From an uncultured Candidatus Sumerlaeota bacterium (GTDB lineage: Bacteria > Sumerlaeota > Sumerlaeia > MVZB01 > JAJFLK01): a stretch of 64,000 bases of DNA. Below, in pieces: positions 2 through 44,639 of the stretch; within the stretch, counting starts at the first letter, position 1; every line of letters starts with the position of its first letter. The notes beneath the pieces were generated by a model. That model made no database searches, was not told where the DNA came from, and saw only the letters and a list, made by a program, of their open reading frames with translations. Position numbers and translations under genes: made by a program. The DNA lies in the NCBI GenBank assembly GCA_964463045.1, contig CAYXAU010000013.1:2188-66187 (forward strand), given 5' to 3'.

Positions 2-370
2 GCCGAGCAGGCGTTCCCGTCGCCGGTCCTGGAGTTGCCGCTGGCGGCCGACGACGACAATCGCCCGATGCTCCACGCGACGTGGCATCGCCAGCCGATC
101 ATGAACGGCACCAACGGGTTTTTCCCCCCCGGGCATCCGCGGCTGCTGCGCGAGCTGGCGGCCTTCCCCGAAGGGGAGACGATCGAGAGATTGCGGGAGC
201 GGCGGGTCCGCTACGTCGTGATCACGCGGGCGGCGGCCGATGGCGATGGATTCGGCTGGCCGGAGGAGCGCCTGGCCCGGACACGTCAGACGCTGGGAGG
301 TCGGTTGGCGACTCGGGACTTCGGCTCGCGAGTCGTCGTGGACCTGGGCGAGGGCGCGGCGGGACGGTGA
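2..370 (+). CDS. C-terminal fragment of a membrane-associated protein, resembling the tail of YfhO-like/GT-C-associated proteins; runs off the window start
   Basis: Frame is open from position 2 (AEQAFPSPVLELPLAADD...HATWHRQPIMNGTNGFFPP...VRYVVI) to TGA at 370. The VLELP..H..P..NG..GF.P pattern is typical of such tails. Confidence 0.5.
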   Translation, partial: AEQAFPSPVLELPLAADDDNRPMLHATWHRQPIMNGTNGFFPPGHPRLLRELAAFPEGETIERLRERRVRYVVITRAAADGDGFGWPEERLARTRQTLGGRLATRDFGSRVVVDLGEGAAGR

Positions 371-400: not shown

Positions 401-1138
401 CTAGCGAGCCAGGGCGGCGGATCGGACGGGGTTAGATTCGACCCATGCCGCCAGGATGAGCATCAGGTCTTCGGCGGGGACGGTGTAGCCGTATTCGGCG
501 AACAAGCGCGACATTTCGCGGGCTTCGGCCGGCGTGAGAGGCCCGATCCGAATTGGCGGCGCCGAGGCCGCCCGGGCGACGCTGGTCGCCGCCGGAGGCT
601 GCGCCTGCGGCGGCGAAACCTCGGGGCCTTCGAGAACGGACAAGGACTCAACGCCGAGAATCAACGCCGCCAGCTCGGCGTCGTACGGCGGCGCGACGGC
701 GGGCGTTGAATCCGCCGGCGCCGGTAGGGTCTCGACGCCGAGGATCAGGGCCGCCAACTCGGCGTCGAAGCCCGCCGTGGCCGCGAGCGCCGGTCCGGTG
801 GAGGTCGGTAGCGTCTCAACGCCGAGGATCAAGGCCCATAGCTCCGGATCGTCGGCGGGGGCGACGGCGGCGACCTCCGGCGCGGGCATGGCCGGGAGCT
901 TGTCGACGCCGAGGATGAGCGCCAACAGCTCTTCATCGACCGAGGAGACGGGAGCCGAAGCGAGGGTCAAGCCTTCGAGCGAGGGGACGCCGAGAATGAG
1001 GGCCAGGAGTTCGGCGTCGAACGGCGCGGCGGCCGGAGCCGAATCCTCGCCGATCGCCCGCAGGGCCGGCAGCGCCGCCAGCGCGACGATCGCCGTCAGT
1101 TTCATGAGCGGGGCCGAGAGCCGGAGGGGGAGCAGCAT
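401..1138 (-). CDS. Secreted repeat protein, 245 aa: signal peptide, five DAELxALILGV repeats in Pro/Ala linkers, small C-terminal helical domain
   Basis: 3' part of ORF 401..1564. AAGGAGG (1149-1155) lies 10 nt upstream of the ATG at 1138, followed by a hydrophobic N-terminus MLLPLRLSAPLMKLTAIVALAALPALRA. Confidence 0.75.
   Translation of the reverse strand: MLLPLRLSAPLMKLTAIVALAALPALRAIGEDSAPAAAPFDAELLALILGVPSLEGLTLASAPVSSVDEELLALILGVDKLPAMPAPEVAAVAPADDPELWALILGVETLPTSTGPALAATAGFDAELAALILGVETLPAPADSTPAVAPPYDAELAALILGVESLSVLEGPEVSPPQAQPPAATSVARAASAPPIRIGPLTPAEAREMSRLFAEYGYTVPAEDLMLILAAWVESNPVRSAALAR
650..1018 (-). repeat. Five in-frame 33-nt coding repeats (DAELAALILGV, DAELAALILGV, DPELWALILGV, DEELLALILGV, DAELLALILGV)
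   Basis: Copies at 650-682, 734-766, 818-850, 905-937 and 986-1018; spacing 84, 84, 87 and 81 nt. Confidence 0.9.
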
Positions 1139-1512
1139 GAGTCGGGGGCCTCCTTGATGGAGTCTGCGAGGACGGTGAGAGGTGATCGACGTTCCGAGCG
1201 GCGATGCCGTCACGTCCGCGGGGCGGTCAAGACGCTGAGTGGCATGAGGCAGGTCGGCCCGTGGCGAGCGATGAACGCGGTCGCGCGTCCACGCCCCCGC
1301 GGCCCATGAGCCATCCGAAGCTTGAAGGCTGAGCGAGCCCAGGCGGGAGGGACTCATCGCGTCAATGACCTGCGTCATTTGGCCCCGGCACGGGCCGTTC
1401 AGAACGTGAGTTCTCTCGAACTCAAGGCGATGATAACGCCGAGCCTTGAGCGCGCGCAAGCCCAATCTGGACGCCGCTTCCGGTCGGGGGGATGGGCCCT
1501 CACGGGGGAGGA

Positions 1513-1547: not shown

Positions 1548-3131
1548 ATGACGCCGGGCCCCACGGAGAACGAAGCCGGGGCGCGATGGCGCCGCGGACC
1601 GGCCCTGACGCTCGGGGGCGTCGGCGCGCTCTACGCGCTCTTCGTCGCGGCGCAGTGGTCGGCGGCCTACCTCGACTTTGGCGATGGGAATTATCTCTAC
1701 ATCGCCACGCGGATGGCCGAGGGGGTCGTCGTTTACCGGGACATCCTGGCGCCTCAGCCGCCGGCGCACCTTTACGTGGGGATGGCCCTCGTGAGGCTGG
1801 CGCGATGGCTTGAGTGGGATTCACCGCTCTTTCTTGTTCGCGGCTTCAGTCTTGTGTTGCGGCTGGCGACGGCGCTCACGGTGGCCGACCTGGGCCTGAG
1901 GGCGTGGGGCCGCTCCTGGACGGGCGCGCTCGCCGGGGGGCTCTATCTCGTCTTGCCGATCGGGCACTGGTGGTCGATGGGGTTCCAATCGGAGCCGCTT
2001 GAGGTTTTCTTTCTGGTCGCGATGGCGCGGGTGGCGCTGGCGGGTTCGCGCGCCCGCGACGTGCTCGTCGGCCTCCTGGGGGCGTTGGCCGCCCTCACCA
2101 ACGTCACGGCGGTGCCGTTTCTCCTCGCGCTGATCCTCTTCATGGGAACGCGGGACCGGCGGCGCGCCGGGCGGATCGCGCTCTCGGCGCTGGGGCTGGC
2201 CGCGGGCGTCTGGGCATGGTTTGAAATCCGCACGGGCCGGTTCTTCGACAACGTCGTTCTTAATCAGGCGGGCGCGTTCGGATCGCCGCAATACACGCTC
2301 GGCAAGCTCATCGCCGAGGGCGGGGATATTTTATGGCTGGAGGGGGGGGTGATCGTCCTGGCGACGCTGGGGCTCACGCGGTTCCTGCGGGAAAGTCCGC
2401 TCGCGGCTGACGCGCGCGACGGGTTGGCCCTTTTCTTTTTGGTAACACTGTTTTCGTTTGTTTACGTCGCCAAAAGTGGCACCGTCGATTACATCTACTG
2501 CCTCGCTGAGCCGGCGTTGGCCGTCCTGGGCGCCGGCGAACTTGTCGCCTTGGGCGGCCGGGCGGCCGCCGCGCGCCGGCGAGGGGGCGCGGCCGTCGCC
2601 GTCGCCGTCGGGGGGGCGGTTCTGCTCGGTCTGGTCGTTCTTGGACCCGCCGCCCTTCACTATCGGCGGCTCTGGACGCAGGCGGCCTACGAGTTACCCG
2701 ATCTCGCCCACGCGGGAAGCGACGAGGCGGGCCGGTCGCGTCCCAACGTCGAACAGGTCCGCCGCTGGATCGAGCGCCGGAGCGCCCCCGGTGATGTGAT
2801 CCTCGCTCCCCCTTTCTATGCCTTCCTCACGGGGAGAAAAATCTGGGGGGAATACAGCGAAATATTTCTCTGGACGGTGAAGAACAATCGGGACCGGGCG
2901 GCGGGCAATCCCGAAGGCGAAGGCTGGCGTAAGGCGCGCGAGCTGGCCGAGGCGATCGACCGCCGCGAGCTGCCGATTGTCATCGTCGAGCTCGATCAGA
3001 CGGGCCGATTCGCCCCGGAGGCCATGCAGGCGCTCGAAAGACATTATGAACCCTTCTATGACCCCCTCCCGGCGGAACCCTATCGCACGCTCAATACCCG
3101 GCTGGGTGTCTACGTTCCACGAGAACCGTGA
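1548..3131 (+). CDS. GT-C fold membrane glycosyltransferase (ArnT/PMT family 39/83-like)
   Basis: Many TM helices; YLDFGDGNYLY..VYRDIL.PQPP loop; QSEPL motif; soluble C-terminal domain. Start chosen at ATG 1548 (ORF track starts at 1446). Confidence 0.75.
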   Translation: MTPGPTENEAGARWRRGPALTLGGVGALYALFVAAQWSAAYLDFGDGNYLYIATRMAEGVVVYRDILAPQPPAHLYVGMALVRLARWLEWDSPLFLVRGFSLVLRLATALTVADLGLRAWGRSWTGALAGGLYLVLPIGHWWSMGFQSEPLEVFFLVAMARVALAGSRARDVLVGLLGALAALTNVTAVPFLLALILFMGTRDRRRAGRIALSALGLAAGVWAWFEIRTGRFFDNVVLNQAGAFGSPQYTLGKLIAEGGDILWLEGGVIVLATLGLTRFLRESPLAADARDGLALFFLVTLFSFVYVAKSGTVDYIYCLAEPALAVLGAGELVALGGRAAAARRRGGAAVAVAVGGAVLLGLVVLGPAALHYRRLWTQAAYELPDLAHAGSDEAGRSRPNVEQVRRWIERRSAPGDVILAPPFYAFLTGRKIWGEYSEIFLWTVKNNRDRAAGNPEGEGWRKARELAEAIDRRELPIVIVELDQTGRFAPEAMQALERHYEPFYDPLPAEPYRTLNTRLGVYVPREP

Positions 3132-3363: not shown

Positions 3364-4671
3364 CTATTTCGGCTCAAGCGAGAGAATGAACTGTAGCAGT
3401 CGTCCGCGATTGGCCGAGAGCGTCCGGTCCGGCCCTGTGGCTTTGATGAAGACGTTGCCGCGGGGAGTCTCGACGATGGCCGCGAGCATCCGCCAGCCGG
3501 GCCGTCGCGGCGTCGAGCCGCCGCCCGGCATCGCGCTGGGTTCTATCGTCCCGGCCAGATCGACGAACGTTACCGGCAGATCGCCGGCGCGCAAGGTCTC
3601 GGTCACGGCGGCCTCGCGTGAGGGGCGCCCGTCGGGTTGGCTGAACTGTGCGTACCACCGTTCGAGATTGGCCTCTACCTCGCCCCCCTGGCCTGGGCCG
3701 AAGTAGAAAACAACCAGCTCGGCGTCTTCGGGGTCGCCTTCGGCGCGCGGCAGGCGGATCTGGGCCTTTCGCATGGTTGAAGCGGGCGGCTCGACGATCC
3801 AGCCGGGCGGCGCGACACCGACCACGACGTCCATATCCAGCGGCTGGGGCTGGTCCCCGGGCGGCGGCGCGGCGGGCCGGGCGGAGTAACCGGCGCGCGG
3901 CGCGCTGGCGGGAGCGGCGGCGACGGCGGCTTCCTCGCCCGGCCCGCCCAGGCTCTCGATAAAGGCCCGCAGCGCCTGGCGATGGGCCGCGAGCGTCCGC
4001 TCGGGACCGATGGCCTTAAAGAAGACCAGCCCGCGCGAGCTGTCGACGATCGCGCCGGCGAGGGCCCAGTTCGGCTGCGGGGGCTGGCGCGGTCCGCCCG
4101 GCATCGAGACGTCGACGGCGCCGGTGGCCTCGACCCACGTCGCCGTAAGCCCGCCGCTGGTTCGCACCGTTTCGACGCGGGCGGTCTCGCGCGTGGGGCG
4201 TCCGTCGGGTTGGGTAACCTGGCCGAACCAGCGTTCCAAGTTGTCCTCGACCGAGCCGGCGGCCTGAATGACCGTCAACACACCGTCGGCGGCGTCCCCG
4301 GGCGCGCGGGGGAGCCGCATCTGTGCCCGGCGCATGGGGGAATCCGGCTGCTCCACAACCCAGTCATCGGGGACGTCCCCTTTGAGGAAGCCGAGGTCGA
4401 AGCCGCCGGCGTGGGCTTCGGGGAATCCGGCGCTGGGGATCGGGGGATGATCGGGGGGGAGTTCGCCGGACCGACGCGGCTGGCGGAGACCTTCGGCGAT
4501 ATCGCGGGCTTCCTGCTCGCTGAGGACTTGGCGGACGGCCTCAAGGTCCTCCGGCGTGACGGCCAAAGCCGGGTCGTCGGGGCCGGTCGTGTACTTGCCG
4601 GTCTCCTGCGGACCGCACGCCAGGATCACGCACGCCCACCCCGCCAGAAGGCATAAGCGCAGGCGCGCCAT
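3364..4671 (-). CDS. Lipoprotein with two tandem homologous domains (P..W...P.S.MR.AQ...N.ERW..Q..QPDGRP) and an LPPDHPPI motif
   Basis: Lipobox VILAC after the ATG at 4671; clear internal duplication of about 150 aa. Confidence 0.75.
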   Translation of the reverse strand: MARLRLCLLAGWACVILACGPQETGKYTTGPDDPALAVTPEDLEAVRQVLSEQEARDIAEGLRQPRRSGELPPDHPPIPSAGFPEAHAGGFDLGFLKGDVPDDWVVEQPDSPMRRAQMRLPRAPGDAADGVLTVIQAAGSVEDNLERWFGQVTQPDGRPTRETARVETVRTSGGLTATWVEATGAVDVSMPGGPRQPPQPNWALAGAIVDSSRGLVFFKAIGPERTLAAHRQALRAFIESLGGPGEEAAVAAAPASAPRAGYSARPAAPPPGDQPQPLDMDVVVGVAPPGWIVEPPASTMRKAQIRLPRAEGDPEDAELVVFYFGPGQGGEVEANLERWYAQFSQPDGRPSREAAVTETLRAGDLPVTFVDLAGTIEPSAMPGGGSTPRRPGWRMLAAIVETPRGNVFIKATGPDRTLSANRGRLLQFILSLEPK

Positions 4672-4769
4672 GATCGCAGGCCCCGCCGTTCTCCATACCT
4701 GACGTTCCAACCAACGCCGTCCTTCTGGCGAATGCGGAGGAAGCGGAGTCACCCGACGCACCCGGCTCT

Positions 4770-25100: not shown

Positions 25101-25201
25101 ATTAACCGCCGAAACACAAAGACTTGAGGAAGTCTGCATCTCCATAATCTTCAACCTGATTTCCCACGTCGATCTTCCTTGTGTCTTTGCCTCGTGCTGG
25201 T
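25101..25201. repeat. Palindromic intergenic element, family A
   Basis: Left arm ATTAACCGCCGAAACACAAAGACTTGAGGAAG; right arm CTTCCTTGTGTCTTTGCCTCGTGCTGGT; low-GC core. Confidence 0.6.
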
Positions 25202-25210
25202 CGTCTTCCG

Positions 25211-28200
25211 ATGCCGTCGCCCAAGATCGAGTTCTGGCTAGGTCGGGCCGGCTCCGGCAAGACGCAGGCCTGCGTCGAAGCGATCGCCGGGGAGCTGCGC
25301 CGCGCGCCGCGCGGGACGCCGTTGATTCTTCTCGTCCCCGAGCAGGCCTCAGCGCAGATGGAATACGCGCTGGCTACGCCGCCGGGCGTGGCCGGCTTCA
25401 CGCGCGCCCGCGTGATGTCGTTCAGGCTCCTTCAGGCCGAAGTCTTTCGCCGCGTCGGGGGCCGTCCCGCGCGTTGCCTGGACGAGCGGGGGCGGGTGAT
25501 GCTGTTGCGCCAGGCGATCGCCCGCTGCCGGAGCCGCCTGTGGCTGCTGGGGGGGCGGTCGGCCGGGCCGGGGCTCGCCGAAGCCGTCAGCCGGACGCTT
25601 CGGGAGCTCCAAGAGAGCGGGTGGGGGCTGAGGGAGTTTCGGGCCCGGCTTGAGGCGCAGGCCGGCGGCGACGATCCGGGCGGGGGCGGCTTCGCGAAAC
25701 TCTCGGACCTCCTTACGATCTGGGCGGCTTACGACGACCTCTTGGGGGAAAAGGGGCTGGCCGAGGCGATCGAGTTGCCCTCCGTCGCGGCCGAGCGTCT
25801 GGCCGAGTGGGGTGGCGTCGCCGACGCTCAAGTCTGGGTGGATGGCTTTGCCTCCTTCACCGCGGCCGAATTCAAACTGTTGATGGCGCTCCTCGGGGGG
25901 GCCCGGTCAGCGGCCCTTACGCTCTGCCTCGACCCTGAGGATCAGACCTTCAGGCGGCGACAATCGGGAGCGGCGACACCGGCCGAGGGGCTCGTGCGGG
26001 TCGGGCCGGAGCGGGTTTTTGAGGAAATCGAGAATCATTACTTTCACCTCAAAGCCCGAATTCAGCAGGCCGGGTGGCCGACCGTGGACATCAGCTTTCC
26101 CCGGCGGAGTCATCCGACTCGCGCGGCCCACGTCACGCCGTTGAGCTTCCTGGAGGCGGAGGTCCTCACGCGCCTCAACCCCAGCCGCTTTCCCGATGCG
26201 GATCGGCCGGAGGGGGCCGCGCCGGTCTGGCCCGTCGGACCGATCGAGCTCGTCGAGGCCGCGGACCGTCGGGCCGAGGTCGAAGCGATCGCCCGGCGGA
26301 TCGCCGCCCTGGTGGCGGCGTCGGCTGAGCCGGGGTCGCGCCCGTTGCGTTGGTCGGATATGGCCGTCGTCGCTCGGGACCTGACGGAGTACGGGCCGCT
26401 GGTCCGAGAGGTCTTCCCTCGGTTCGGGATTCCTTTCTTCCTCGATCAGGGGCGTTCGCTGGCCTCGCATCCGATCACCCGCCTGCTCACGGCGGCTCTG
26501 GCCCTCGTCGAGGGGCCGACGCGGACGGAAACGGTGAGCCGATATCTCAAGAGTGGGCTCGTCCCGCTGGCGGACCCCGAAGACGCCGCCCGGCTGGAGC
26601 GGCTGGCGCGACGGCGACGGCTGACCGGGTCCGACTGGGGGAACCTCCGGCGGTGGGTCGGGCCGCGCCATGGACAGCCGGGGCCATCCACCAAGGAGGA
26701 GGTCGAGGCCGAATGGCTCTTCCAAGTCTGGGCCGAGGCCTGGGCCCCGGTTGAGGCGCTGGGCGCGGCGCTCGCGGCGCTGGAGGCGGGCGACGGGCCG
26801 ACACAAGCCGACGGAGCCCCCGGAGGCGCGGCCGAGGCGGGCTCATCGCCGGCGCGGGCGCTCTGGGCGTTCCTGGAGCGGCTGGGGGCGCGCCAGAAGC
26901 TGGAGCAATGGGTCGACGAAGCCCTCCAGGCCGGCGAACCCGAGGCGGCGCTCCTTCATCAGGAGGCCTGGGCCGAGCTGGTCGCCTTCCTGGAGCGATT
27001 GGAGGAACTCGGTCTGCCGGGGCCGGTGCCCGCCGCTGGGGCTGGGTCCGATTCAACCGGGGCGGTCCCCTCGGCCGAGGGCCTCGTCGCGACGTTGACG
27101 GAGGCGCTCGCCGGGGCGCTTTCGGCGGCGCGGGCGCGCTTGATCCCGCCGGCCGTGGAGCAGGTGATCGTGGCCTCGGTGGAGCGCTCGCGGCTGCCCA
27201 ACGTGCGCGTGGCGTTCGTGCTCGGGCTCGCCGAAGGGGAGTTTCCGCGAACCCAGGAAGAGGATCCGCTTCTGAGCGACACGGAGCGGGAGGCGCTCGG
27301 GACGGCGCAGCAGACGCTGGGGCGACATCGGACGGCGCGGCTGAATCACGAACGTTATCTGGCTTATATCGCGCTCACGCGACCGTCGGAGCGGCTCGTG
27401 CTGACTCGGCCCATGGCGGATAGCGGGGGGCGCCTGAACCCCCCGTCGCCGGTCTTCCGCGCCGTCGCCGAGGCGTTCCCCATGGCCCCCCGCGGGACGC
27501 CGCTCCCCTCGGCAGCGAATCTCGCGCCCGTGCTTCCGGAGGAATGGGGCCGGATGGTTGTTGAAGCCTCTCATCGGGCCCGGGCCGGGATGAGCCCGGC
27601 GGTCATCGGCCAAGCCCTCGCCGGGCCGCATCCGCTCTGCGCGGCGCTTGAGGGGCCGGCGGCCGATGCGGCACGGCGCCGGATCGAGCGCACGATCGCG
27701 GCGCTGGATTGGCCGCCCAGGGGGAACCTCGAGCGAGAACTGGCGCGGGCGTTCTGGAGCGAGCGGCCCCGGCTGGCGGTGACGGCGCTGGAGACGCACG
27801 CGGCCTGTCCTTTCAAGTTCTTCGCCTCGAACATGCTGCGGCTGGAGGAACCGGCGGAGCCGCTGCCGGGTCCGCTGGAGATGGGGCAGGTGCGGCATCG
27901 GTTGCTCGCGGCGTTGTTTGCGAAGCTCAAAGGGGCGGAGGGGCTCGATTGGGGAGGCGTCGACCTCGCCGAGGCCGACAAGGCGATCGACGAGGCGGCG
28001 GCGGAAATTCGGGCCGACCTCCTGGGCGGCAGCCTGGGGGCCGACGCCCTGACCCAAAAACTCGTCGAATTCGTCATCGCGGAGATGAGGGTGTTGCTGC
28101 CGGCGCTCAAGGAGGTCGGGCGGCGCAGCCGGCTGCGGCAGGTGGAGGCTGAGGGCCCTCTGGCCGGAAGTCTCGTTTTGGACGCCGGCGAGGGACTCGC

Positions 28201-28879
28201 TTTCACAGTGACGGGCAAGATCGACCGCAAGGACGCGATGGCGGAGGCGGGCGCGGCGCCGGGGGCGCTCGTTCTTTACGATTACAAATCCGGCGGGCGC
28301 GATCTCTCCGCGACCGATTTGTATTACGGGATCGATCTGCAATTGGCCGCCTACGCCTTGGCCGAGACGCGGCGCGTCTCGAGGCCGGTGCTCGGCGTCT
28401 TCTATTGGCCCGTGGGCGTCAGGCTGATCCGCGCCGACGGGTCGAGCTGGCCGGAGCCGGGGACTCGCCCATGGTTTGACAATTATAAGCTCAAGGGCTT
28501 GTTCGACGTGACGATCGCCCGGGACCTGGACACTGAGATTCTCCCAAACGGCGAGAATGCCCTGGCCTTCAGCTTCAGGCTCAAAAAGGATGGCGGGGTC
28601 GATTTCCGGAGTTTCGGACCCTTGCCCGAGGGGAGCTTCGGGCGCTATCTGAGCCACGTCGAACAGTTGATGCGGGAGCGCGCGCGCCGGATCGCCGACG
28701 GCGAGATCAACTTGCATCCATGGCGGCGCGGCGGCGGGACGGCGTGCGATCAGTGCGCTTATGAGGCGCTCTGCCGGAAGTCGACGTTCGAAGGGGACGT
28801 GTTCCATACCGAAGCCGGACTCGATCGCAGTGAGTTCCGCCGGCGATTCGCCGCCGGGGGAGGCTCCGATGACCAGTAA
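25211..28879 (+). CDS. addB: ATP-dependent helicase/nuclease subunit B (AddB/RexB)
   Basis: N-terminal GRAGSGKT, LILLVPEQ, WVDGF..F; C-terminal ACPFKFF...GKIDRKD..YDYKSG...CDQCAYEALC nuclease with four Cys. Confidence 0.88.
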   Translation: MPSPKIEFWLGRAGSGKTQACVEAIAGELRRAPRGTPLILLVPEQASAQMEYALATPPGVAGFTRARVMSFRLLQAEVFRRVGGRPARCLDERGRVMLLRQAIARCRSRLWLLGGRSAGPGLAEAVSRTLRELQESGWGLREFRARLEAQAGGDDPGGGGFAKLSDLLTIWAAYDDLLGEKGLAEAIELPSVAAERLAEWGGVADAQVWVDGFASFTAAEFKLLMALLGGARSAALTLCLDPEDQTFRRRQSGAATPAEGLVRVGPERVFEEIENHYFHLKARIQQAGWPTVDISFPRRSHPTRAAHVTPLSFLEAEVLTRLNPSRFPDADRPEGAAPVWPVGPIELVEAADRRAEVEAIARRIAALVAASAEPGSRPLRWSDMAVVARDLTEYGPLVREVFPRFGIPFFLDQGRSLASHPITRLLTAALALVEGPTRTETVSRYLKSGLVPLADPEDAARLERLARRRRLTGSDWGNLRRWVGPRHGQPGPSTKEEVEAEWLFQVWAEAWAPVEALGAALAALEAGDGPTQADGAPGGAAEAGSSPARALWAFLERLGARQKLEQWVDEALQAGEPEAALLHQEAWAELVAFLERLEELGLPGPVPAAGAGSDSTGAVPSAEGLVATLTEALAGALSAARARLIPPAVEQVIVASVERSRLPNVRVAFVLGLAEGEFPRTQEEDPLLSDTEREALGTAQQTLGRHRTARLNHERYLAYIALTRPSERLVLTRPMADSGGRLNPPSPVFRAVAEAFPMAPRGTPLPSAANLAPVLPEEWGRMVVEASHRARAGMSPAVIGQALAGPHPLCAALEGPAADAARRRIERTIAALDWPPRGNLERELARAFWSERPRLAVTALETHAACPFKFFASNMLRLEEPAEPLPGPLEMGQVRHRLLAALFAKLKGAEGLDWGGVDLAEADKAIDEAAAEIRADLLGGSLGADALTQKLVEFVIAEMRVLLPALKEVGRRSRLRQVEAEGPLAGSLVLDAGEGLAFTVTGKIDRKDAMAEAGAAPGALVLYDYKSGGRDLSATDLYYGIDLQLAAYALAETRRVSRPVLGVFYWPVGVRLIRADGSSWPEPGTRPWFDNYKLKGLFDVTIARDLDTEILPNGENALAFSFRLKKDGGVDFRSFGPLPEGSFGRYLSHVEQLMRERARRIADGEINLHPWRRGGGTACDQCAYEALCRKSTFEGDVFHTEAGLDRSEFRRRFAAGGGSDDQ

Positions 28880-31800
28880 CGTAGAGACGGTCGCTCCCGC
28901 CGCGGGCTCGGATTGGATCTGGACCGTGGAACAGCGTCAGGCCATCGAGGACTGGGCCAACGCGCTGATCGTCACGGCCGGGGCGGGCTCCGGCAAAACG
29001 GCCGTCCTGACCGAGCGGGTTTTCGAGCTCATCACGAAGCCCGATCCCTCGACCGGAGCGCCGGTCGGCCTGGAGCGGCTCCTGGTCGTCACGTTCACCC
29101 GCAAGGCCGCCGGGGAGATGCGCGATCGGATCGAGCGGCGGCTGCTCAAGGCCCTGGCGGCCGATCCGACCGATCGGGCCGCGCGCGCCGCGCTCGAGGC
29201 CCTTCCGGAGGCTTGCATCCTGACGTTGGACGCCTTCTGCGACCGTTTCGTCCGGCGCCATTTTCATGAGGCGGAGGTTTCCCCCGCCGCGCGTGTGGCC
29301 GAAGCGGACGAAGAAGCCGAACTGGTCGGTCAGACCCTCGATCGCCTTTTCGAGGAGCTGGCTGCGCGGGCCGACGATGACGGCCGCGCCATGGCGTTGC
29401 TGATAGCGACCACCTCCCCCTCACGTGGAGGCGCGTTGCAAACCCTGCGTGAACGGATCCAGACGATCCGCGGCTTTATGCAGTCGCTGGAAACTCCGGA
29501 GAACTGGCTGGCGAGCGTCCGCGACCGGTTCGCCGGGACGCTCCACGATCCGGGCCGCCTCCAATCGGAGTCCGCTAAACGTTTTCGCCGTTCATTCCAT
29601 CAGGCCACCGGGGAGCTACGGGATTTGTTCCAGGTCGTGCTGGCCGAGGCGCGGCTTCGTCGGGCGGACGGCGGGACGCTTGAGCAATGGGCGAGCGCGG
29701 GCGACTGGTTGGACCGGCTGATCGCGCGACTGAGCGGCGACGAGCCCATCGAGGCTATCGTTAAGGACGGGATCGGCGAGGTCGAGCGGCAGCCGGCCGC
29801 CACGCTGGAATCGCTGGGCGACAAGAAAACCTGTGGACCCGCCCTCGCTCAAGACGAGAGCTTCCGCAAGCATACGTTGGAGGCGTTTTCGAAACGGTTC
29901 ACCGCGTGGAGGGGGCGCTGGTTCGCGCTCAATCCGGACCACTGGGGAGAAATTTCAGCCCTGGCCGCCGACCAGGCCCTTGCCCTTTTGCGTCTGGTGG
30001 AATTGGCCGATGAGCGGGTCGAGGCGCTCAAACGGCGGCGGGGCCTCCTCACATTCGCCGATCTGGAACGGGGTACGCTTCGGGCGCTGACGGACCCGGC
30101 GACGTCCGGCCCTTCGGCGCTGGCGCGGGAGTATCAGAGGCGTTTCCACAGCGTGCTGGTGGACGAATACCAGGACATTTCGCCCTTGCAGGACGCCCTC
30201 ATCCGGCGCCTTTCACGCTCCGAGGGCCGCCCCCCCGAAACACCGCGCAACCTGTTCGTCGTCGGGGACCTCAAGCAGAGCATCTATCGGTTCCGCCGGG
30301 CTGAGCCGCGACGGTTCCTCAAAGCGCTTGAGGCGGCCGCGCCCGAGCCGAGCCCGCCGGACGGACGTCGCCGGGTCAGCCTGACGGCTAATTTCCGCTC
30401 GCGCCCCGGCCTGATCGATTTCGTCAACGCCGTCTTCGAGACGCTCATGGACCAGACGCTCGGCGGCTTGAGCTACGACGCCGAAGCGCGGCTCGTCGCG
30501 ACCCGGACCGATTCGCCCGATGACGATCCGATCTGCGTCGAGCTCGTGCCCCTTCCAACCGCCGCTCAAGGCGGGACAAAACGGAAAGAGAGGGCCGCCG
30601 AATCCGACGAGGACGACACGAACCCGGGAATGCAATCCGAAGCGCTCAGCGGGCTTGAGCGAGAGGCCCGATGGATCGCCCGTCGGATCGTCGAGCTGAC
30701 CTCGGCCGAGGGAGGCCTCTGGCTCCCGGACGAAGGCAAGGGCCGGCGACGCGCTCGGCCGGGCGATTGCGCGATCCTGGTCCGCAAAATGGCCGGCGAC
30801 GCGCCGACGTGGATCGCCGAACTCGAGCGCGCCGGCCTGGCCGTCCAGACGCCGGATCAGCCGTCGTTTCTGGCCGAGCCGGAAGTGGTCGATGTCCTCA
30901 ACGCCCTCCGCGTCGCCGATCAGCCGTTCGATGATTTGACGCTCGCCGGCGTCCTCCGGTCGCCGATGGCGGGTCTAAGCGACGATGACCTGCTGCGCCT
31001 CCGGAGGCTCCGGCGGGAAGGGCCGTTCCATGAGGCCGTTTGGGCCGCGCGGCCGGGCGAGCCCGGGGCGGCCTGCCTCCCCCCTGCCCTTGAGACGAAG
31101 CTCAAGGCGTTCTTCACGAATCTGGCCTTCTGGCGACGGGAGGCTGAACGGGGGGGACCTGAGGCGGCTTTGGAGGCGATCCTCAGCTCGACGGAGTATG
31201 AAGCCCACGTGGCGGGGACGCGACAGGCGAGCGAGCGGCTCGGTCATCTGGCGCAGCTCCGGCAGTTAGTCCGCCGCTTCGCCGCCCAGGGGCTGGGCGA
31301 GGACGTGGCGGCGTCTCTGCGCGGAATCGAGGCCCTGGAGGCGGGTTCGCTCCAGGGGAGCGTGGAGGGCTTGGCCGACCGGGCGGACGCCGTGCACCTG
31401 CTGACGATCCACAAAAGCAAAGGGCTTGAATTCCCGATCGTCTTCCTTCCCCGATTGGGCTCTCCGCTGGAGGCCGGCGAGTACCGCAATCCCGATCTGA
31501 TCCTGGAGGCGGAGGGGGGCATGGCCCTGGTGGCCGGGGATCCCTCCCGACGGCTGGTGTTCGTCGGGCCGGAGCTGACGGCCGCTCGCGAGCGGGAACA
31601 CCGCGCCCGCCGTGAAGAGCACATCCGATTGCTCTACGTCGGGATGACGCGCGCCCGGGAGCGTCTGATCCTGAGCGGCCTCGATCCGCCGCGGAGCCAT
31701 CGGCCGAGTTCCGGGCCCTCCACCGCCGCCGAAGACAAGCCCACGTTGCCGCTCGAGCGACTGGCCGCGGGGAGTTATGTCGAACTGCTCCGGCCGGCGC

Positions 31801-32810
31801 TCGTTCGCCTAGCGACCTCGACCCCGCCGCCGTGGCTTCACGTTCACCCTCCGCCGGCCGCCCTCCCCTCCCCGGCGGCCGCGGACGTGGGATGGTATCA
31901 GCGGGCGCTACGGGTTTCGGCCGATGAAGCTCAGGCGGCTTGGGAAGCCGCGCGGGTCGAGTTGGGCCGTCTTGAGGGGTCGGCGGTCTCGGAGGCGCCG
32001 CCGCCGGTCATTCTCCCGATCGCCGAGCCCGGGGTTCTGGCGCGGCTCCCGCTCAAGCTTACCGTGACGCAATTGACCCGAATGCGGACCGAAGGGGATC
32101 GGGACGTTCCGGGCGAAGGGGACCCGGACGAGGCGGCGCGCTTCGACGAGGAAGGGATGGCCCCAAGCGGCGCCCTCGCGCGGCTCCTCCAGGGAGGTCC
32201 CGCTTTTGCGCGGCCGGCGGGCGGGCCGGCGGTCGATGGCCGCCGGCGCGGGCGTCTGACGCATCAGCTTCTGGAGCATCTCGATCTGAGTCGGGCGCTG
32301 GACGAAGCCGATCTGCGGCTCCAGGCTGAGGAGCTGCGCCGTCGCGGCCTGCTTGAAGCCGAGGGGATCGGGGAGCTGGACAGTCTGCCTTACGGCGCGA
32401 TCGCCCGGTTTTTCGATCGCCCGCTCGGGCGGCGGCTGCGCCGGCGGCCCGGCTCGGTCCTGCGGGAGCTGCCGTTTACGCGGTGGGTCCCCGCCTCGCA
32501 ATTGCCGCGGGGGATGGTCGGGCCGGCTGACGATCTCGGCCCGGAGATGACGACCCCCATCCTGTTGCAAGGGACCATCGATTGCGTGCTGGACGAAGGC
32601 GAGCGGGTGCTGGTGCTGGACTATAAGACGGACCCCGTAAGCGGGCCCGAGGCGGTGACTCGGTTGACGCAACGCTATGGGCCGCAGATCACGGCCTATC
32701 AGCGGGCGCTGCAGACGGTCTGGCGCGTGCCCGAACCGGAGGCTTATCTGGTCTTTCTCGATTCGGGCGATGAGGTCCGGATCGGCGTGACGGACTCCTC
32801 GGCGAGCTGA
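28869..32810 (+). CDS. addA: ATP-dependent helicase/nuclease subunit A (AddA/RexA)
   Basis: AGAGSGKT, VTFTRKAA.EM, VDEYQD, VGD.KQSIYRFR, NFRSR, TIHKSKGLEF, YVGMTRA, C-terminal QGTIDC..DYKTD. Confidence 0.92.
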   Translation: MTSNVETVAPAAGSDWIWTVEQRQAIEDWANALIVTAGAGSGKTAVLTERVFELITKPDPSTGAPVGLERLLVVTFTRKAAGEMRDRIERRLLKALAADPTDRAARAALEALPEACILTLDAFCDRFVRRHFHEAEVSPAARVAEADEEAELVGQTLDRLFEELAARADDDGRAMALLIATTSPSRGGALQTLRERIQTIRGFMQSLETPENWLASVRDRFAGTLHDPGRLQSESAKRFRRSFHQATGELRDLFQVVLAEARLRRADGGTLEQWASAGDWLDRLIARLSGDEPIEAIVKDGIGEVERQPAATLESLGDKKTCGPALAQDESFRKHTLEAFSKRFTAWRGRWFALNPDHWGEISALAADQALALLRLVELADERVEALKRRRGLLTFADLERGTLRALTDPATSGPSALAREYQRRFHSVLVDEYQDISPLQDALIRRLSRSEGRPPETPRNLFVVGDLKQSIYRFRRAEPRRFLKALEAAAPEPSPPDGRRRVSLTANFRSRPGLIDFVNAVFETLMDQTLGGLSYDAEARLVATRTDSPDDDPICVELVPLPTAAQGGTKRKERAAESDEDDTNPGMQSEALSGLEREARWIARRIVELTSAEGGLWLPDEGKGRRRARPGDCAILVRKMAGDAPTWIAELERAGLAVQTPDQPSFLAEPEVVDVLNALRVADQPFDDLTLAGVLRSPMAGLSDDDLLRLRRLRREGPFHEAVWAARPGEPGAACLPPALETKLKAFFTNLAFWRREAERGGPEAALEAILSSTEYEAHVAGTRQASERLGHLAQLRQLVRRFAAQGLGEDVAASLRGIEALEAGSLQGSVEGLADRADAVHLLTIHKSKGLEFPIVFLPRLGSPLEAGEYRNPDLILEAEGGMALVAGDPSRRLVFVGPELTAAREREHRARREEHIRLLYVGMTRARERLILSGLDPPRSHRPSSGPSTAAEDKPTLPLERLAAGSYVELLRPALVRLATSTPPPWLHVHPPPAALPSPAAADVGWYQRALRVSADEAQAAWEAARVELGRLEGSAVSEAPPPVILPIAEPGVLARLPLKLTVTQLTRMRTEGDRDVPGEGDPDEAARFDEEGMAPSGALARLLQGGPAFARPAGGPAVDGRRRGRLTHQLLEHLDLSRALDEADLRLQAEELRRRGLLEAEGIGELDSLPYGAIARFFDRPLGRRLRRRPGSVLRELPFTRWVPASQLPRGMVGPADDLGPEMTTPILLQGTIDCVLDEGERVLVLDYKTDPVSGPEAVTRLTQRYGPQITAYQRALQTVWRVPEPEAYLVFLDSGDEVRIGVTDSSAS

Positions 32811-33003: not shown

Positions 33004-34560
33004 TCACGGCGTCGGCCGCGCGGGAAGGCCGGCCAGAAAAGCCTCGGCGACGGGACGACCGGCCTCGACCATCGCGCTCAATTCACGCCCCAGCGGGGCC
33101 ACCGCGTCCAGATAGGGGCGGGGGTAGAGGCCGATCCAGAAGGCCAAGGCGACCAGGACGCCGAGGGCGAACGTCTCGCGCGGGTTGAGATCGCGCAGGC
33201 CGGCGTTCTCGGCCGTCTCCAGCGGGCCGAAGAAGACCTGTTGCGCCAGACGCAGGAGATAAACGGCGGCCAGAATCACGCCGACGGCGCCGATGGCCGC
33301 CCGCCAGGGGGCGCTCTTGAAGGTCCCGACGAGAATCAGGAACTCCCCCACAAAGCCGTTGAGCCCCGGCAGGCCGATCGAGGAGAGAATCAGGATCAAC
33401 GTCAGCGTGGCGTAAAGCTTCATGTTGCGGGCGAGGCCGCCGAAATCGCTCATCCGGCGCGTGTGGCGCCGCTCATACAACACGCCGACGCAGAAAAAAA
33501 GCCCTCCCGTCGAAAGCCCGTGATTGACCATCTGAAGGGCCGCCCCGGCCACGGCCTCCTCCCGGAAGGCGAAAAGCCCCAGGACGACGAAACCCATGTG
33601 ACTGACCGAAGAGTAAGCAACCAGGCGTTTGACATCCTCTTGAGCCAGCGCCGTGAGGGCGCCGTAGATGATCGCGGCGGCCCCGACGGTCATCATCCAC
33701 GGGGCGGCTTCGGCGGCCACCGACGGGAAGAAGGGAATGGCGAAACGCATCAGGCCGTAGACGCCGGTTTTGAGGAGGACGCCGGCCAGCAGGATCGACC
33801 CGGCGGTGGGGGCCTCCGTGTGCGCGTCGGGCAGCCAGGTGTGGAACGGGACGAGCGGGATCTTGATGGCGAAGGCGATCAGGAAGGCGGCGAAGATGAG
33901 CCGTTGAACCTCCGCCGGCAGCCGATCGCTCACGGCGGCCAGCTCCGGCAGCGCGAAGGAGCCGCCGACCATCAACGGCCGGGCGTGAAAGTAAAGCGCC
34001 AGGATGCCGATCAGCATCAGGACGGAACCGGCCATCGTGTAGAGGAAAAACTTAAGCGTGGCGTAGACGCGCCGACCGGAGCCGAAAATGCCGATCAGGA
34101 AATAAAGGGGGACGAGCATCAGCTCCCAGAAGATGTAAAAGAGGAAAAGATCGAGGGCGAGAAACGTCCCGACCATGCCGGTCTGAAGGAGCATCAGAAG
34201 GGCGTAGAACTCGCGCCGCCGTTCGACGACGGCGCTCCAGGAGGCCAGCACGCCCAGGATCGTCAGCAGATTCGTCAACGTCACCAGGAGCCCCGACAGG
34301 CCGTCCATCGCGAGGAAAAAGCGGATTCCCCAGCCGGGAATCCAGACGCGGCTCAACCCGGCCGTGAATTCCCCGGGCGCGGCCAACGCCCGGGGCAACA
34401 GGCCCACGGCGACGACGAACGTCGCCACCGAGCCGGCGAGCGCATACCAGCGGGAAAGCCCGCCCGTCCGCGGGGGCTGAACCCAGGCGATCAGCATCGC
34501 CGTCGCCAGCGGCAGGAAGACGAGCAGCAGCAATTCAGCGGCGTGAGCTTCGGTCACCAT
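33004..34560 (-). CDS. nuoM: NADH-quinone oxidoreductase subunit M
   Basis: FYIFWELMLVP, FAIKIPLVPFHTWLPDAHTEAPT, AYSSVSHMG, LPGLNGFVGEF. Confidence 0.95.
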   Translation of the reverse strand: MVTEAHAAELLLLVFLPLATAMLIAWVQPPRTGGLSRWYALAGSVATFVVAVGLLPRALAAPGEFTAGLSRVWIPGWGIRFFLAMDGLSGLLVTLTNLLTILGVLASWSAVVERRREFYALLMLLQTGMVGTFLALDLFLFYIFWELMLVPLYFLIGIFGSGRRVYATLKFFLYTMAGSVLMLIGILALYFHARPLMVGGSFALPELAAVSDRLPAEVQRLIFAAFLIAFAIKIPLVPFHTWLPDAHTEAPTAGSILLAGVLLKTGVYGLMRFAIPFFPSVAAEAAPWMMTVGAAAIIYGALTALAQEDVKRLVAYSSVSHMGFVVLGLFAFREEAVAGAALQMVNHGLSTGGLFFCVGVLYERRHTRRMSDFGGLARNMKLYATLTLILILSSIGLPGLNGFVGEFLILVGTFKSAPWRAAIGAVGVILAAVYLLRLAQQVFFGPLETAENAGLRDLNPRETFALGVLVALAFWIGLYPRPYLDAVAPLGRELSAMVEAGRPVAEAFLAGLPARPTP

Positions 34561-36530: not shown

Positions 36531-36552
36531 GGCGTTCGGCGCCCGGGGGCGC

Positions 36553-38034
36553 TCAGAGCACGATCATCATCGGGAAGAGCGCAAAGGCGAGGACCCCGGC
36601 CGAGCAGAGGATCAGGGCCACGGCGTTGCCCCCCTCCAAGGCCACGGGCTCGGCGCGAACCGCCGGCGCTTCCTCCATGTACATTTTGACGATCACCTTC
36701 AGGTAGTAGTAGGCCGAGGCCACCGAGGCCAGCACGCCGAAACAGGCCAGCGCGTAAAGCTCGGCGTCGACGGCGACCGAGAACAGGTAAAACTTCCCCA
36801 CGAAGCCGACCGTCGGAGGAACGCCGGTCAGCGACAAGAGCGCCAGGGCGAGGGCCGCGGCCAGGGCCGGCGAGCGGCGGGCCAGCCCGGCGTAGCGGTC
36901 CAGATGGCTCTCCCCCTGCGGGCCGAGCGTGGCGGCGACGCCGAAGGCCAGCGCCGTCATCAACCCATAGGCCAGGACGTAATAGGTGACGGCGCGTTCG
37001 GCCGCCACCCAGTGCGCCGGTTCCCGCGCCGCCGCCCAGAGCGGGATCAGGACGTAGCCGCCGTGAGCGACGCCGGAGTAAGCCAGCAGGCGCTTGACGT
37101 GCGTCTGGACGACGGCGCCGACGTTGCCGACGACGATGCTGGCGACGGTCAGAAGGCCGATGGCGACGACGAAGCCGTCGGGCAGATCGGCCCAGGCCAC
37201 CAGCGGGCGGAAGAGATTCAGAAGGGCGGCCAGCGTCGCCACCTTGGAGCCGGTGGCCAGGAAGCCGACGACGGTCGTCGGGGCTCCGGCGTAGACGTCG
37301 GGGGCGTACATGTGGAACGGGGCGAGCGTCAGCTTGAAGCCGAAGCCGACGAGCATGAGGCTCAAACCGGCGCCCAGAAAAAAGCCGTGACGCAAGAGGC
37401 CGGGCAGCGCGCCCGCCTCCAGGTGGGCGTGGATCTCGCTCAGGCGGGTGGTGCCGAGCGCCCCATAGACCATGCTGATCCCGAACAGGAGAAACGCCGA
37501 GGCGTAGGCGCCGGTGAGGAAGTATTTGAAGGCGGCCTCGGTCGAGCGGAGGTTATCCCGCTCGAGGCCGGCCAGGACGTAAAAGCAGATGGCGACGAAC
37601 TCGAGGTTCAAGAACAGGGTCAGCAGCTCGTGGGAAGCCGCCAGGAGCATCATGGCCGCCGCGGCCAGGGTCATGAGGGCGTAATACTCGGCCGGCGGCA
37701 GCGCCCGCCCTTCCAGATACGACGGCGAGATGAGAATGAAGAACAAGGCCAGCCCCAGAATCACGTTCTGACCCAGGAAGACGACGCCGTCCCAGCGGAG
37801 GCACCCGTAGAGAATCAATCGCGGCGTCTCGCCGGGGGCGCCGACCCCGTAAAGGAGCGTCCCCCAGGCCAGCGTCAGGCCGAAGGCCGCCACGCCCCGC
37901 GAGGCCGGCCCCGCCCGCCCGGGCCGGATCAGCTCGATGACCAGGAGCGCGAGCGCCGTCGCCAGAACCAGCCCCGCCGGGCCGAGCGGCCGAAAGTCCT
38001 CGGGAAGGGGGAGAGCCAGAGGGGCATCAGGCAT
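36553..38034 (-). CDS. nuoN: NADH-quinone oxidoreductase subunit N
   Basis: TEAAFKYF, GFGFKL..APFHMYAPDVY.GAP, KRLLAYSGVAHGG, GFVGKFY. Confidence 0.93.
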   Translation of the reverse strand: MPDAPLALPLPEDFRPLGPAGLVLATALALLVIELIRPGRAGPASRGVAAFGLTLAWGTLLYGVGAPGETPRLILYGCLRWDGVVFLGQNVILGLALFFILISPSYLEGRALPPAEYYALMTLAAAAMMLLAASHELLTLFLNLEFVAICFYVLAGLERDNLRSTEAAFKYFLTGAYASAFLLFGISMVYGALGTTRLSEIHAHLEAGALPGLLRHGFFLGAGLSLMLVGFGFKLTLAPFHMYAPDVYAGAPTTVVGFLATGSKVATLAALLNLFRPLVAWADLPDGFVVAIGLLTVASIVVGNVGAVVQTHVKRLLAYSGVAHGGYVLIPLWAAAREPAHWVAAERAVTYYVLAYGLMTALAFGVAATLGPQGESHLDRYAGLARRSPALAAALALALLSLTGVPPTVGFVGKFYLFSVAVDAELYALACFGVLASVASAYYYLKVIVKMYMEEAPAVRAEPVALEGGNAVALILCSAGVLAFALFPMMIVL

Positions 38035-38062
38035 CAGGGGGATCCGTCGCCGACGGCGCGGC

Positions 38063-38907: not shown

Positions 38908-38938
38908 CGGCGTTCTGGGGCGGGCCGGCGCGCGGCCT

Positions 38939-43174: not shown

Positions 43175-43187
43175 CGGGGCGGGGGGA

Positions 43188-44626: not shown

Positions 44627-44639
44627 TCTCCTGCCTTCT

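What the first reader, a model, noticed from the sequence alone, without database searches (positions are those of the whole stretch)
401..1138. Secreted protein with five DAELxALILGV hydrophobic repeats on Pro/Ala linkers
Seen: signal peptide, then five near-identical 11-aa motifs spaced 27-29 aa apart by acidic Pro/Ala/Ser/Thr-rich linkers, then a ~50-aa helical domain (LTPAEAREMSRLFAEYGYTVPAEDLMLILAAW). Synonymous codons differ between copies while the peptide is conserved, which indicates selection at protein level. I do not recognise this motif from any family. Inference: a multivalent scaffold (short sticker helices on disordered spacers) acting outside the cytoplasm, for example binding a repeating surface lattice or membrane.
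Basis: partly seen in the sequence, partly recalled or inferred. Interest (0 to 1): 0.65.

Follow-up and report, generated by a model that had tools for sequence, protein, structure and literature searches.

The report
Orphan secreted protein with hydrophobic repeats
This is a real gene from an uncultured hot-spring bacterium for an exported, acidic, mostly disordered protein carrying five copies of a short hydrophobic helix motif; the motif belongs to no described family and was found in only three other proteins, and what it binds is unknown.

Summary
Window 401-1138 (minus strand) encodes a 245-aa protein. It has a signal peptide, five D-x-E-L-L-A-L-I-L-G-V copies 27-29 aa apart, acidic Pro/Ala-rich linkers and a confidently predicted three-helix C-terminal domain. 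Between copies the motif codons differ mostly synonymously (46 synonymous, 15 non-synonymous). The linker codons differ mostly non-synonymously (8 versus 93).

The motif matches nothing in Pfam, NCBIfam or PDB. An exhaustive profile search of 1.84 billion representative proteins, plus genome, metagenome and viral scans, found only three relatives. Two are in Candidatus Sumerlaeota MAGs and one is on a short metagenome contig. All three have a signal peptide, 6 to at least 7 copies and an acidic mature protein. They show that the full motif is about 17-19 aa: D/N-x-E-L-L-A-[LA]-I-L-G-V-[EN]-[ST]-L-[ED]-G-L.

No neighbouring gene is shared between the loci. The motif core is uniformly hydrophobic, not amphipathic, and reads as a capped two-turn helix ending at an invariant Gly.

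My best reading is an exported multivalent "sticker on spacer" protein whose helices act by being buried in a partner, in each other or in lipid. The target is untested. This is a new orphan family of an ordinary kind, of moderate-low interest.

The parts
401..1138 (-). CDS of the 245-aa repeat protein (stop codon 401-403)
   Evidence: Translation. Coding GC signature 0.75/0.54/0.85. The identical protein was called on JGI contig Ga0114945_10002689 from the second Met (P0001, 234 aa).
1149..1155 (-). Shine-Dalgarno AAGGAGG, 10 nt upstream of the ATG at 1138
   Evidence: Read directly from the sequence. The alternative ATG at 1105 used by the JGI gene call has no such site.
1055..1138 (-). Signal peptide, residues 1-28 (MLLPLRLSAPLMKLTAIVALAALPALRA | IGED)
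   Evidence: Judged by eye: basic n-region, 13-residue hydrophobic core, and A at -1 with L at -3. The homologues end similarly (GLRA|E, LARA|E, VQA|T). No predictor was run.
986..1018 (-). Motif copy 1, DAELLALILGV (residues 41-51). It continues as PSLEGLTL, the only full-length copy in this protein.
   Evidence: 33.8 bits against the family motif HMM.
905..937 (-). Motif copy 2, DEELLALILGV (residues 68-78)
818..850 (-). Motif copy 3, DPELWALILGV (residues 97-107)
734..766 (-). Motif copy 4, DAELAALILGV (residues 125-135)
650..682 (-). Motif copy 5, DAELAALILGV (residues 153-163)
404..538 (-). C-terminal three-helix domain (residues 201-245), found only in the window protein
   Evidence: AF2 on residues 190-245: mean pLDDT 83.9, with helices at residues 203-215, 222-235 and 237-244. 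No fold match in PDB. No sequence relative.
443..475 (-). Possible degenerate sixth motif copy, AEDLMLILAAW (residues 222-232), forming helix 2 of the C-terminal domain
   Evidence: DNA repeat pair D3 (453-476 versus 993-1016, 75% identity). Weak: it is a two-copy match and the motif HMM does not score it.

Best explanation
The gene encodes an exported, strongly acidic (pI about 4), cysteine-free and largely disordered protein. It may be released into the periplasm or outside the cell, or it may stay tethered by its signal sequence. It belongs to a tiny, undescribed family.

The functional unit is a short linear motif, D/N-x-E-L-L-A-[LA]-I-L-G-V-[EN]-[ST]-L-[ED]-G-L. I read it as a capped two-turn alpha-helix: an Asp/Asn/Ser N-cap, Pro/Ala at N1, Glu, six aliphatic residues, and an invariant Gly as helix stop.

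The eight-residue core is hydrophobic on all sides, so it cannot stay exposed. It must work by being buried in a groove of a partner protein, against copies of itself (the invariant A-x-x-x-G spacing is typical of close helix-helix packing), or in the interface of a lipid layer.

Five to at least seven such helices sit on acidic Pro/Ala-rich spacers of free length and sequence. That makes the protein a multivalent binder or cross-linker: avidity comes from copy number, and reach and solubility come from the spacers. In the window protein a small three-helix C-terminal domain adds one further, different contact.

Shown: the anatomy, the selection on the motif, the family and its rarity, and the lack of any known family match. 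Inferred: export, fold-on-binding helices and multivalent binding. Unknown: the target.
For: - Real gene: coding GC signature and SD site.
- Selection on the motif: 46 synonymous versus 15 non-synonymous differences in the core, against 8 versus 93 in the linkers.
- Independent conservation: the same motif occurs 6 to at least 7 times in three other proteins from genomes of 53-60% GC. P0003 was not in the query profile and scored E=5.6e-20 in the exhaustive search. The L005 protein was found by pattern plus tblastn at E=2e-9. P0002 scored E=9e-10.
- Column counts over the 19 copies of the first three proteins: L 19/19, G 19/19, A 16/19, I/V 19/19. The six L005 copies fit the same pattern.
- All four proteins start with a signal peptide and have an acidic mature part, pI 4.05-4.83.
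- Linkers vary in sequence and length, with periods of 27-52 aa.
- AF2 puts helices exactly on A42-L49, 69-76, 98-104, 126-133 and 154-160, each ending before the Gly. The chain before the C-terminal domain is essentially all below pLDDT 50.
- The core has mean Eisenberg hydrophobicity 0.92 with a low helical moment of 0.27, so it is not amphipathic.
Against: - No partner, no conserved neighbour gene, no expression data and no experimental data exist.
- The AF2 helices on the motifs have low confidence and come from a single sequence.
- The signal peptide and its cleavage were judged by eye.
- With only four family members, conservation statistics are thin.
- A beta-strand reading of the motif (strand addition or amyloid-like stacking) is not excluded.
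Confidence: 0.45

Rival explanations
1. Polyprotein precursor. The exported protein is cut between repeats to release several copies of a small, anionic, hydrophobic peptide (surfactant, signal or antimicrobial). This would resemble repeat-containing peptide precursors such as the Ustilago Rep1 repellents or animal neuropeptide precursors (comparison from my own knowledge).
For: The conserved peptide units are separated by spacers that look disposable. All members have a signal peptide. The conserved V-[EN]-[ST] just after the hydrophobic core fits the small -3/-1 rule of type I signal peptidase. That fit is my reading of the column counts.
Against: The units have no conserved cleavage-type flank on both sides. 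No protease, maturation enzyme or exporter is shared among the loci. The acidic residues before each core are the opposite of a signal-peptide n-region. An 8-residue core is too short to sit in the membrane for signal peptidase.
Confidence: 0.1
2. Self-assembling matrix or functional-amyloid-like protein. The LLALILGV segments are aggregation-prone strands kept soluble by acidic and proline 'gatekeepers'. They stack between molecules to build a biofilm or envelope matrix, possibly strengthened by heat.
For: The core is uniformly hydrophobic with no helical or strand amphipathicity. It is flanked by D/E and Pro. Copy number varies between homologues, as in matrix and surface proteins. The habitat is a hot spring.
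Against: There is no match to curli, Fap or chaplin families in Pfam or NCBIfam. No amyloid secretion genes lie nearby. The helix N-cap and Gly C-cap signature and the AF2 helices favour a helix.
Confidence: 0.12
3. Envelope glycoprotein. In the window organism the Pro/Ala/Ser/Thr-rich linkers are O-glycosylated by the two flanking polytopic membrane proteins, if these are GT-C type glycosyltransferases. This would resemble the Ala/Pro-rich Apa glycoprotein and the Pmt enzyme of mycobacteria (from my own knowledge). It could hold together with the main explanation.
For: The gene lies between two large polytopic membrane protein genes (window 2-370 and 1548-3131; L002 genes of 571 and 527 aa). 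The 527-aa one has a weak GT87 match, E=0.0077 and 16.4 bits against a cutoff of 25. The mature protein is 12% Pro, 21% Ala and 11.5% Ser+Thr.
Against: The GT87 hit is below threshold. The 571-aa protein matches nothing. The two neighbours are unrelated to each other. The target gene is on the opposite strand. None of the homologous loci has such neighbours.
Confidence: 0.08
4. Degenerate leucine-rich-repeat-like solenoid. L-L-A-L-I-L-G-V-N-S-L fits the LRR core pattern LxxLxLxxNxL, and the 27-29 aa period is LRR-like, so the protein would fold into one compact curved domain.
For: 12 of 25 units across the family fit L..L.L..[NCST].L, mostly the Sumerlaeota copies with Asn (my count on the units). 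The window period of 27-29 aa is within the LRR range.
Against: None of the 5 window copies has Asn/Cys/Ser/Thr at the ladder position; they carry P, D, E, E, E. No Pfam LRR model matches any of the four proteins even at E<=10. Unit length varies from 27 to 52 aa with Pro/Ala-rich low-complexity spacers. AF2 gives no solenoid. Positions that are variable in LRRs are conserved and hydrophobic here.
Confidence: 0.04
5. Spurious or decaying ORF: a repetitive GC-rich stretch that happens to be open.
For: No expression data could be found. One homologue carries an in-frame stop.
Against: The coding GC3 signature and a strong SD site. Synonymous-dominated divergence in the motif. Peptide-level conservation in genomes of very different GC content.
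Confidence: 0.02

Closest known systems
Dehydrin / LEA-type proteins with K-segments (plants). Analogy from my own knowledge, not a tested relationship.
   Same: An intrinsically disordered chain in which only a ~15-aa segment is conserved. The segment is repeated a variable number of times on free-evolving spacers and is thought to form a helix only when bound.
   Different: K-segments are Lys-rich and amphipathic, and the proteins are cytosolic. Here the segment is acidic-flanked and uniformly hydrophobic, and the protein carries a signal peptide. There is no sequence similarity.
Tandem disordered binding repeats of bacterial surface adhesins, for example the fibronectin-binding repeats of FnBPA/SfbI (from my own knowledge)
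   Same: An exported bacterial protein whose disordered tandem repeats each fold onto a site of a target, giving avidity through copy number. Copy number varies between relatives.
   Different: Those repeats are longer, bind by beta-strand addition, and sit in wall-anchored multidomain proteins of Gram-positive pathogens. Here there is no anchor, no other domain except a 45-aa helical tail, and the target is unknown. No Pfam match.
Leucine-rich repeat core LxxLxLxxNxL
   Same: About half of the family's units fit the pattern letter by letter. The window's repeat period is LRR-like.
   Different: The window copies lack the Asn. The spacers are Pro/Ala-rich and of variable length. No LRR model matches and no solenoid is predicted.
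Dockerin second-half helix (D-L-x-x-L-L-x-x-W-G)
   Same: A short acidic-capped Leu-rich helix ending in Gly. The C-terminal copy AEDLMLILAAW looks most like it.
   Different: There is no Ca-binding loop, the Asp/Glu-to-Gly spacing differs, and the Pfam Dockerin models do not match at E<=10.
Ala/Pro-rich secreted glycoproteins of actinobacteria (Apa, 45/47 kDa; from my own knowledge)
   Same: Sec-exported, acidic, Ala/Pro-rich and low-complexity. Possible glycosyltransferase-like membrane proteins lie nearby.
   Different: Apa has no hydrophobic repeat motif. The link to the neighbours is weak and is not conserved.

Membership tests
Any Pfam / NCBIfam repeat or domain family | Match to a curated profile at or near its gathering score | tested here: not met
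   Zero families at E<=10 for the window protein in Pfam-A and NCBIfam. The three homologues and the isolated C-terminal domain give only noise hits, E>=0.016 and far below the cutoffs.
Proteins with a solved structure | Sequence or fold similarity to a PDB chain | tested here: not met
   phmmer with the protein and hmmsearch with the motif profile both gave 0 hits at E<=10. Foldseek with the whole model and with the C-terminal domain model gave a best E above 2.
Leucine-rich repeat proteins | Tandem 20-30 aa units with LxxLxLxxN/CxL, regular unit length and a solenoid fold | tested here: not met
   Pattern fits 0/5 window units and 12/25 family units. Unit length is 27-52 aa. No Pfam LRR hit and no solenoid in AF2.
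Dockerin | Paired Ca-binding loop (DxNxDGxV) plus helix segments; Pfam Dockerin_1 | tested here: not met
   No D-x-N-x-D-G loop appears in the sequence. No Pfam hit at E<=10.
Multi-core RiPP precursor | Repeated core peptides with conserved recognition flanks, next to maturation enzymes, a protease or a transporter; usually no Sec signal peptide | tested here: not met
   No such genes lie next to any of the four loci, and no neighbour is shared between them. A Sec-type signal peptide is present.
Functional amyloids (curli CsgA, FapC, chaplins) | Family-specific repeat profile, a dedicated secretion/nucleator operon, and amyloid formation | tested here: inconclusive
   Profile match and operon are not met. 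Amyloid formation itself cannot be tested with these tools.
Sec-exported protein | N-terminal signal peptide with n-, h- and c-regions and a cleavage site | tested here: inconclusive
   All four family members have a basic n-region, a hydrophobic core of 12-16 residues and a small -1 residue, judged by eye. No SignalP-type predictor or experiment was available, so cleavage versus signal-anchor is open.
Lipoprotein | Lipobox ending in Cys after the signal peptide | tested here: not met
   The window protein has no Cys at all.

The most novel reading that the evidence does not exclude
The family is a bacterial extracellular 'sticker-spacer' network former. Fully hydrophobic, capped two-turn helices carrying an invariant A-x-x-x-G packing face associate between molecules, and more strongly at high temperature. 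The acidic Pro/Ala spacers keep the assembly hydrated. The protein would then form a heat-induced coacervate or gel in the envelope or matrix of hot-spring bacteria, a prokaryotic functional analogue of elastin-like assembly built on an unrelated motif.
Probability: 0.1. Interest if true: 0.65.

Novelty: new variant of a known kind. Interest (0 to 1): 0.33.

Why it matters
If the reading is right, this is a clean, minimal example of a bacterial exported protein built only from a short fold-on-binding hydrophobic motif and disordered spacers. The motif has not been catalogued anywhere. It is so rare that only four proteins among about 15 billion searched carry it in multiple copies, two of them in the uncultured phylum Sumerlaeota.

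It would give a handle on envelope or matrix organisation in organisms that cannot be grown. A 17-residue peptide like this is also easy to synthesise and test.

On present evidence, however, it answers no standing question. It is best treated as a well-defined orphan family.

Tried and rejected
1. Word-index homologue search with the whole protein found only itself and P0002. With a 40-column repeat alignment it scored nothing, although the same profile scores both proteins strongly when run locally. With the C-terminal 52 aa it found no candidates. One call failed because the query was too short.
2. The exhaustive profile search gave only P0001 (self), P0002 and P0003, plus a spurious P0004 with KRGVESLQDL repeats. 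Limitation: one motif copy scores only 25-34 bits, so proteins with a single copy could not have been seen.
3. The GTDB genome scan found two Sumerlaeota MAG loci. The JGI metagenome scan found only the source contig. The viral contig scan found nothing.
4. Conserved gene neighbourhood: none between the window, L001 and L005.
5. Expression: no RNA runs are available. The DNA runs are hot-spring metagenomes with the identical sequence and show no informative variants.
6. Structure: the whole-protein AF2 model has pLDDT 46. The Foldseek searches were uninformative.
7. Rfam on the window, and promoter/terminator scans around the gene, found nothing.
8. A literature search for the motif strings gave no papers.
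9. Dockerin, LRR, RiPP, lipoprotein and curli-type assignments were considered and rejected, as set out in the membership table.
10. The phylum of the window organism could not be established. Sumerlaeota genomes listed in PMC8092238 are 54-65% GC, against 69% here.

Full report
**The gene.** The finding sits on the minus strand. Window 401-1138 translates to a 245-aa protein. The ATG at 1138 is preceded by AAGGAGG at 1149-1155, 10 nt upstream. GC content by codon position is 0.75/0.54/0.85, the same signature as the clearly coding ORFs of this 69% GC window. The open frame continues upstream to 1564, but that part has no coding signature (0.70/0.63/0.69). The JGI gene call on the source contig starts at the second Met (P0001, 234 aa), which has no ribosome-binding site. 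I therefore take 1138 as the start.

**The repeats.** Five copies of D-x-E-L-[LAW]-A-L-I-L-G-V lie at residues 41-51, 68-78, 97-107, 125-135 and 153-163, with a period of 27-29 aa. At the DNA level they form a five-member direct-repeat family spaced 81-87 nt with 63-77% identity. Tandem Repeats Finder does not report it because the units are too diverged. I compared codons between all ten pairs of copies. The 11-codon core gives 49 identical, 46 synonymous and 15 non-synonymous comparisons. Eleven linker codons in the same register give 9, 8 and 93. The best hexapeptide occurs five times; in 2000 shuffles of the mature sequence no hexapeptide exceeded three.

**Rest of the protein.**
- Residues 1-28 look like a Sec signal peptide (MLLPLRLSAPLMK / LTAIVALAALPAL / RA|IG). 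This was judged by eye.
- The mature part has pI 4.05, with 29 Asp+Glu against 7 Lys+Arg. It is 21% Ala, 12% Pro and 11.5% Ser+Thr, and has no Cys.
- AF2 on the whole protein, from a single sequence, gives mean pLDDT 46. Short helices fall exactly on the motif cores (42-49, 69-76, 98-104, 126-133, 154-160), and essentially everything before the C-terminal domain is below 50.
- The C-terminal 56 residues modelled alone give pLDDT 84 and three helices, at residues 203-215, 222-235 and 237-244.
- Helix 2, AEDLMLILAAW, may be a degenerate sixth copy. It has 75% DNA identity over 24 nt to copy 1, but the motif HMM does not score it.

**Known families.**
- Pfam-A and NCBIfam give no match at E<=10 for the protein. 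The three homologues and the isolated C-terminal domain give none either.
- PDB sequences give nothing with the protein or with the motif profile.
- Foldseek against PDB gives nothing with either model.
- The motif strings occur in no paper of the library.

**Relatives.**
- The word-index search found one relative, P0002 (313 aa, E=9e-10).
- A profile of 12 repeat units (A1) was searched exhaustively against 1.84 billion cluster representatives. It returned only the window protein, P0002, P0003 (174 aa, four copies, E=5.6e-20, not part of the profile) and one spurious low-complexity protein.
- A scan of one genome per GTDB species found P0002's contig and one more locus, L005. Both are titled uncultured Candidatus Sumerlaeota MAGs.
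- The L005 ORF 6338-7453 encodes 371 aa with a signal peptide and six copies, for example NPELLALVLGVNTLDGLHL.
- The JGI metagenome scan returned only the source contig, and the viral scan nothing.
- P0003's 1.2-kb contig shows an in-frame TAG, after which the same frame carries three more copies. That protein therefore has at least seven copies, or is broken.
- One copy scores only 25-34 bits, so single-copy carriers would have been invisible in the exhaustive search.

**What the family shows.**
- Over the 19 copies of the first three proteins the columns read D(10)/S/N/Q - A/P/D - E(14) - L(18) - L(15) - A(16) - L/A - I(16)/V - L(19) - G(19) - V(15)/I - E/N/S - S(11)/T(5) - L(16) - E/D - G(11) - L(12). 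The six copies in L005 fit the same pattern.
- The conserved unit is therefore about 17-19 aa. The window protein has kept the second half only in copy 1 (PSLEGLTL) and loosely in copy 5.
- All four proteins have a signal peptide and an acidic mature part, pI 4.05-4.83.
- Periods range from 27 to 52 aa and the linker sequences are unrelated.
- The host genomes differ widely in GC: 69%, 56%, 53% and roughly 58-60% (L003 estimated by eye). The shared peptide is therefore not a compositional artefact.

**Context.**
- In the window the gene is convergent with a 571-aa polytopic membrane protein gene (C-terminus at 2-370). It is divergent, across 409 nt, from a 527-aa one (1548-3131).
- Neither reaches any family threshold. 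The 527-aa protein has a sub-threshold GT87 hit, E=0.0077 and 16.4 bits against a cutoff of 25. The two are unrelated to each other.
- The Sumerlaeota loci have entirely different neighbours, and no ORF other than the repeat protein is shared between loci.
- The rest of the window is ordinary chromosome: YchF, TrmB, MntR, AddAB, a complex I operon, UvrA and amidases.
- The DNA comes from hot-spring metagenomes, at about 35x depth in one run and with the identical sequence at low depth in two others. No RNA run is available.
- Sumerlaeota are known from hot springs (PMC8092238). The phylum of the window organism was not established.

**Mechanism.**
- The eight-residue core LLALILGV has mean Eisenberg hydrophobicity 0.92. 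Its hydrophobic moment is low both as a helix (0.27) and as a strand (0.15). It is hydrophobic all round, not amphipathic.
- It is too short to span a membrane and is bracketed by acidic residues, so it should pass through Sec without arresting. This is an inference.
- The flanks read as helix caps: Asp/Asn/Ser at the N-cap, Pro/Ala at N1, then Glu, and an invariant Gly directly after the last Leu. The AF2 helices end precisely there.
- Ala and Gly are conserved four residues apart. This small-xxx-small spacing is commonly used for tight helix-helix packing (from my own knowledge).
- A two-turn, all-aliphatic helix cannot be stable alone in water. Its conservation therefore implies that it acts by being buried in a partner's groove, against other copies, or in a lipid interface. 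The spacers would supply solubility and reach, and the copy number would supply avidity.
The evidence does not say what is bound. I put 0.45 on this multivalent-binder reading as a whole.

**Rivals.**
- Precursor of released hydrophobic peptides (0.10). There are no conserved cleavage flanks and no shared processing genes.
- Self-assembling amyloid-like matrix protein (0.12). There is no family or operon match, and the cap signature favours a helix.
- O-glycosylated envelope protein served by the flanking membrane proteins (0.08). The link is weak and not conserved; this could hold together with the main model.
- Degenerate LRR solenoid (0.04). The pattern LxxLxLxxNxL fits 12 of 25 units but none in the window, no LRR profile matches, unit length is irregular and no solenoid is predicted.
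- Spurious ORF (0.02).

**Verdict.** The kind of protein, an exported disordered tandem-repeat protein with a short linear motif, is familiar. The family itself is new and extremely rare, and nothing yet ties it to a process. Interest is moderate-low.

Noticed in passing
L003 854-856 and 857-1212 (JGI 3300045950, Ga0484001_0222741): The homologue P0003 ends at an in-frame TAG, but the same frame continues with three more full motif copies (ELLAAILGVSSLD..) to the contig end. This could be a nonsense mutation, a sequencing error or a read-through stop. The true protein has at least 7 repeats.
   Followed up: partly
window 2-370 (+) and 1548-3131 (+); L002 4443-6158 and 1682-3265: The repeat gene is sandwiched, on the opposite strand, between two large polytopic membrane protein genes (571 and 527 aa) that match no family. 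The 527-aa one has a sub-threshold GT87 (GT-C mannosyltransferase) hit and an LDFGDGNYLY loop after its first hydrophobic segment. The two are unrelated to each other.
   Followed up: partly
L001 4889-8297 (Ca. Sumerlaeota MAG CAZPIK010000021): Directly upstream of P0002, on the same strand, lie three tandem paralogues (388, 381 and 335 aa). Each has a signal peptide, a conserved 'DD.APRRGGGG' stretch, a Cys-rich block ACC(T/N)(F/Y)ATCGANS.G.CNCG.ACPGK and a long Lys/Glu coiled-coil tail. None has a Pfam family.
   Followed up: no
window 3364-4761 (-): A 465-aa protein with no family match that appears to be an internal duplication. Two similar halves each contain ...P.GW.VE.P.S.MR.AQ.RLPRA.GD..D..L.V......G.VE.NLERW..Q..QPDGRP.RE...
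   Followed up: no
P0002 C-terminus and L005 7340-7450: The two Sumerlaeota proteins share a C-terminal tail motif, L-Q-[DN]-L-A-Y-[AG], after the last repeat. It is absent from the window protein, which instead has its own three-helix domain.
   Followed up: no
L002 7249-9062 (beyond the window's left end): About 3 kb from the repeat gene on the source contig there is an HTH_3 + Peptidase_M78 (ImmA/IrrE-like) gene next to a DUF3368 gene. The pair looks like a toxin-antitoxin or regulator module.
   Followed up: no
window 33004-45152 (-): A complex I (nuo) operon, with three Proton_antipo_M subunits, NuoG-like and NuoF-like genes. AddAB-type helicase-nuclease genes lie at 25181-32810. This is ordinary chromosomal context and shows the window is not a mobile element.
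   Followed up: partly
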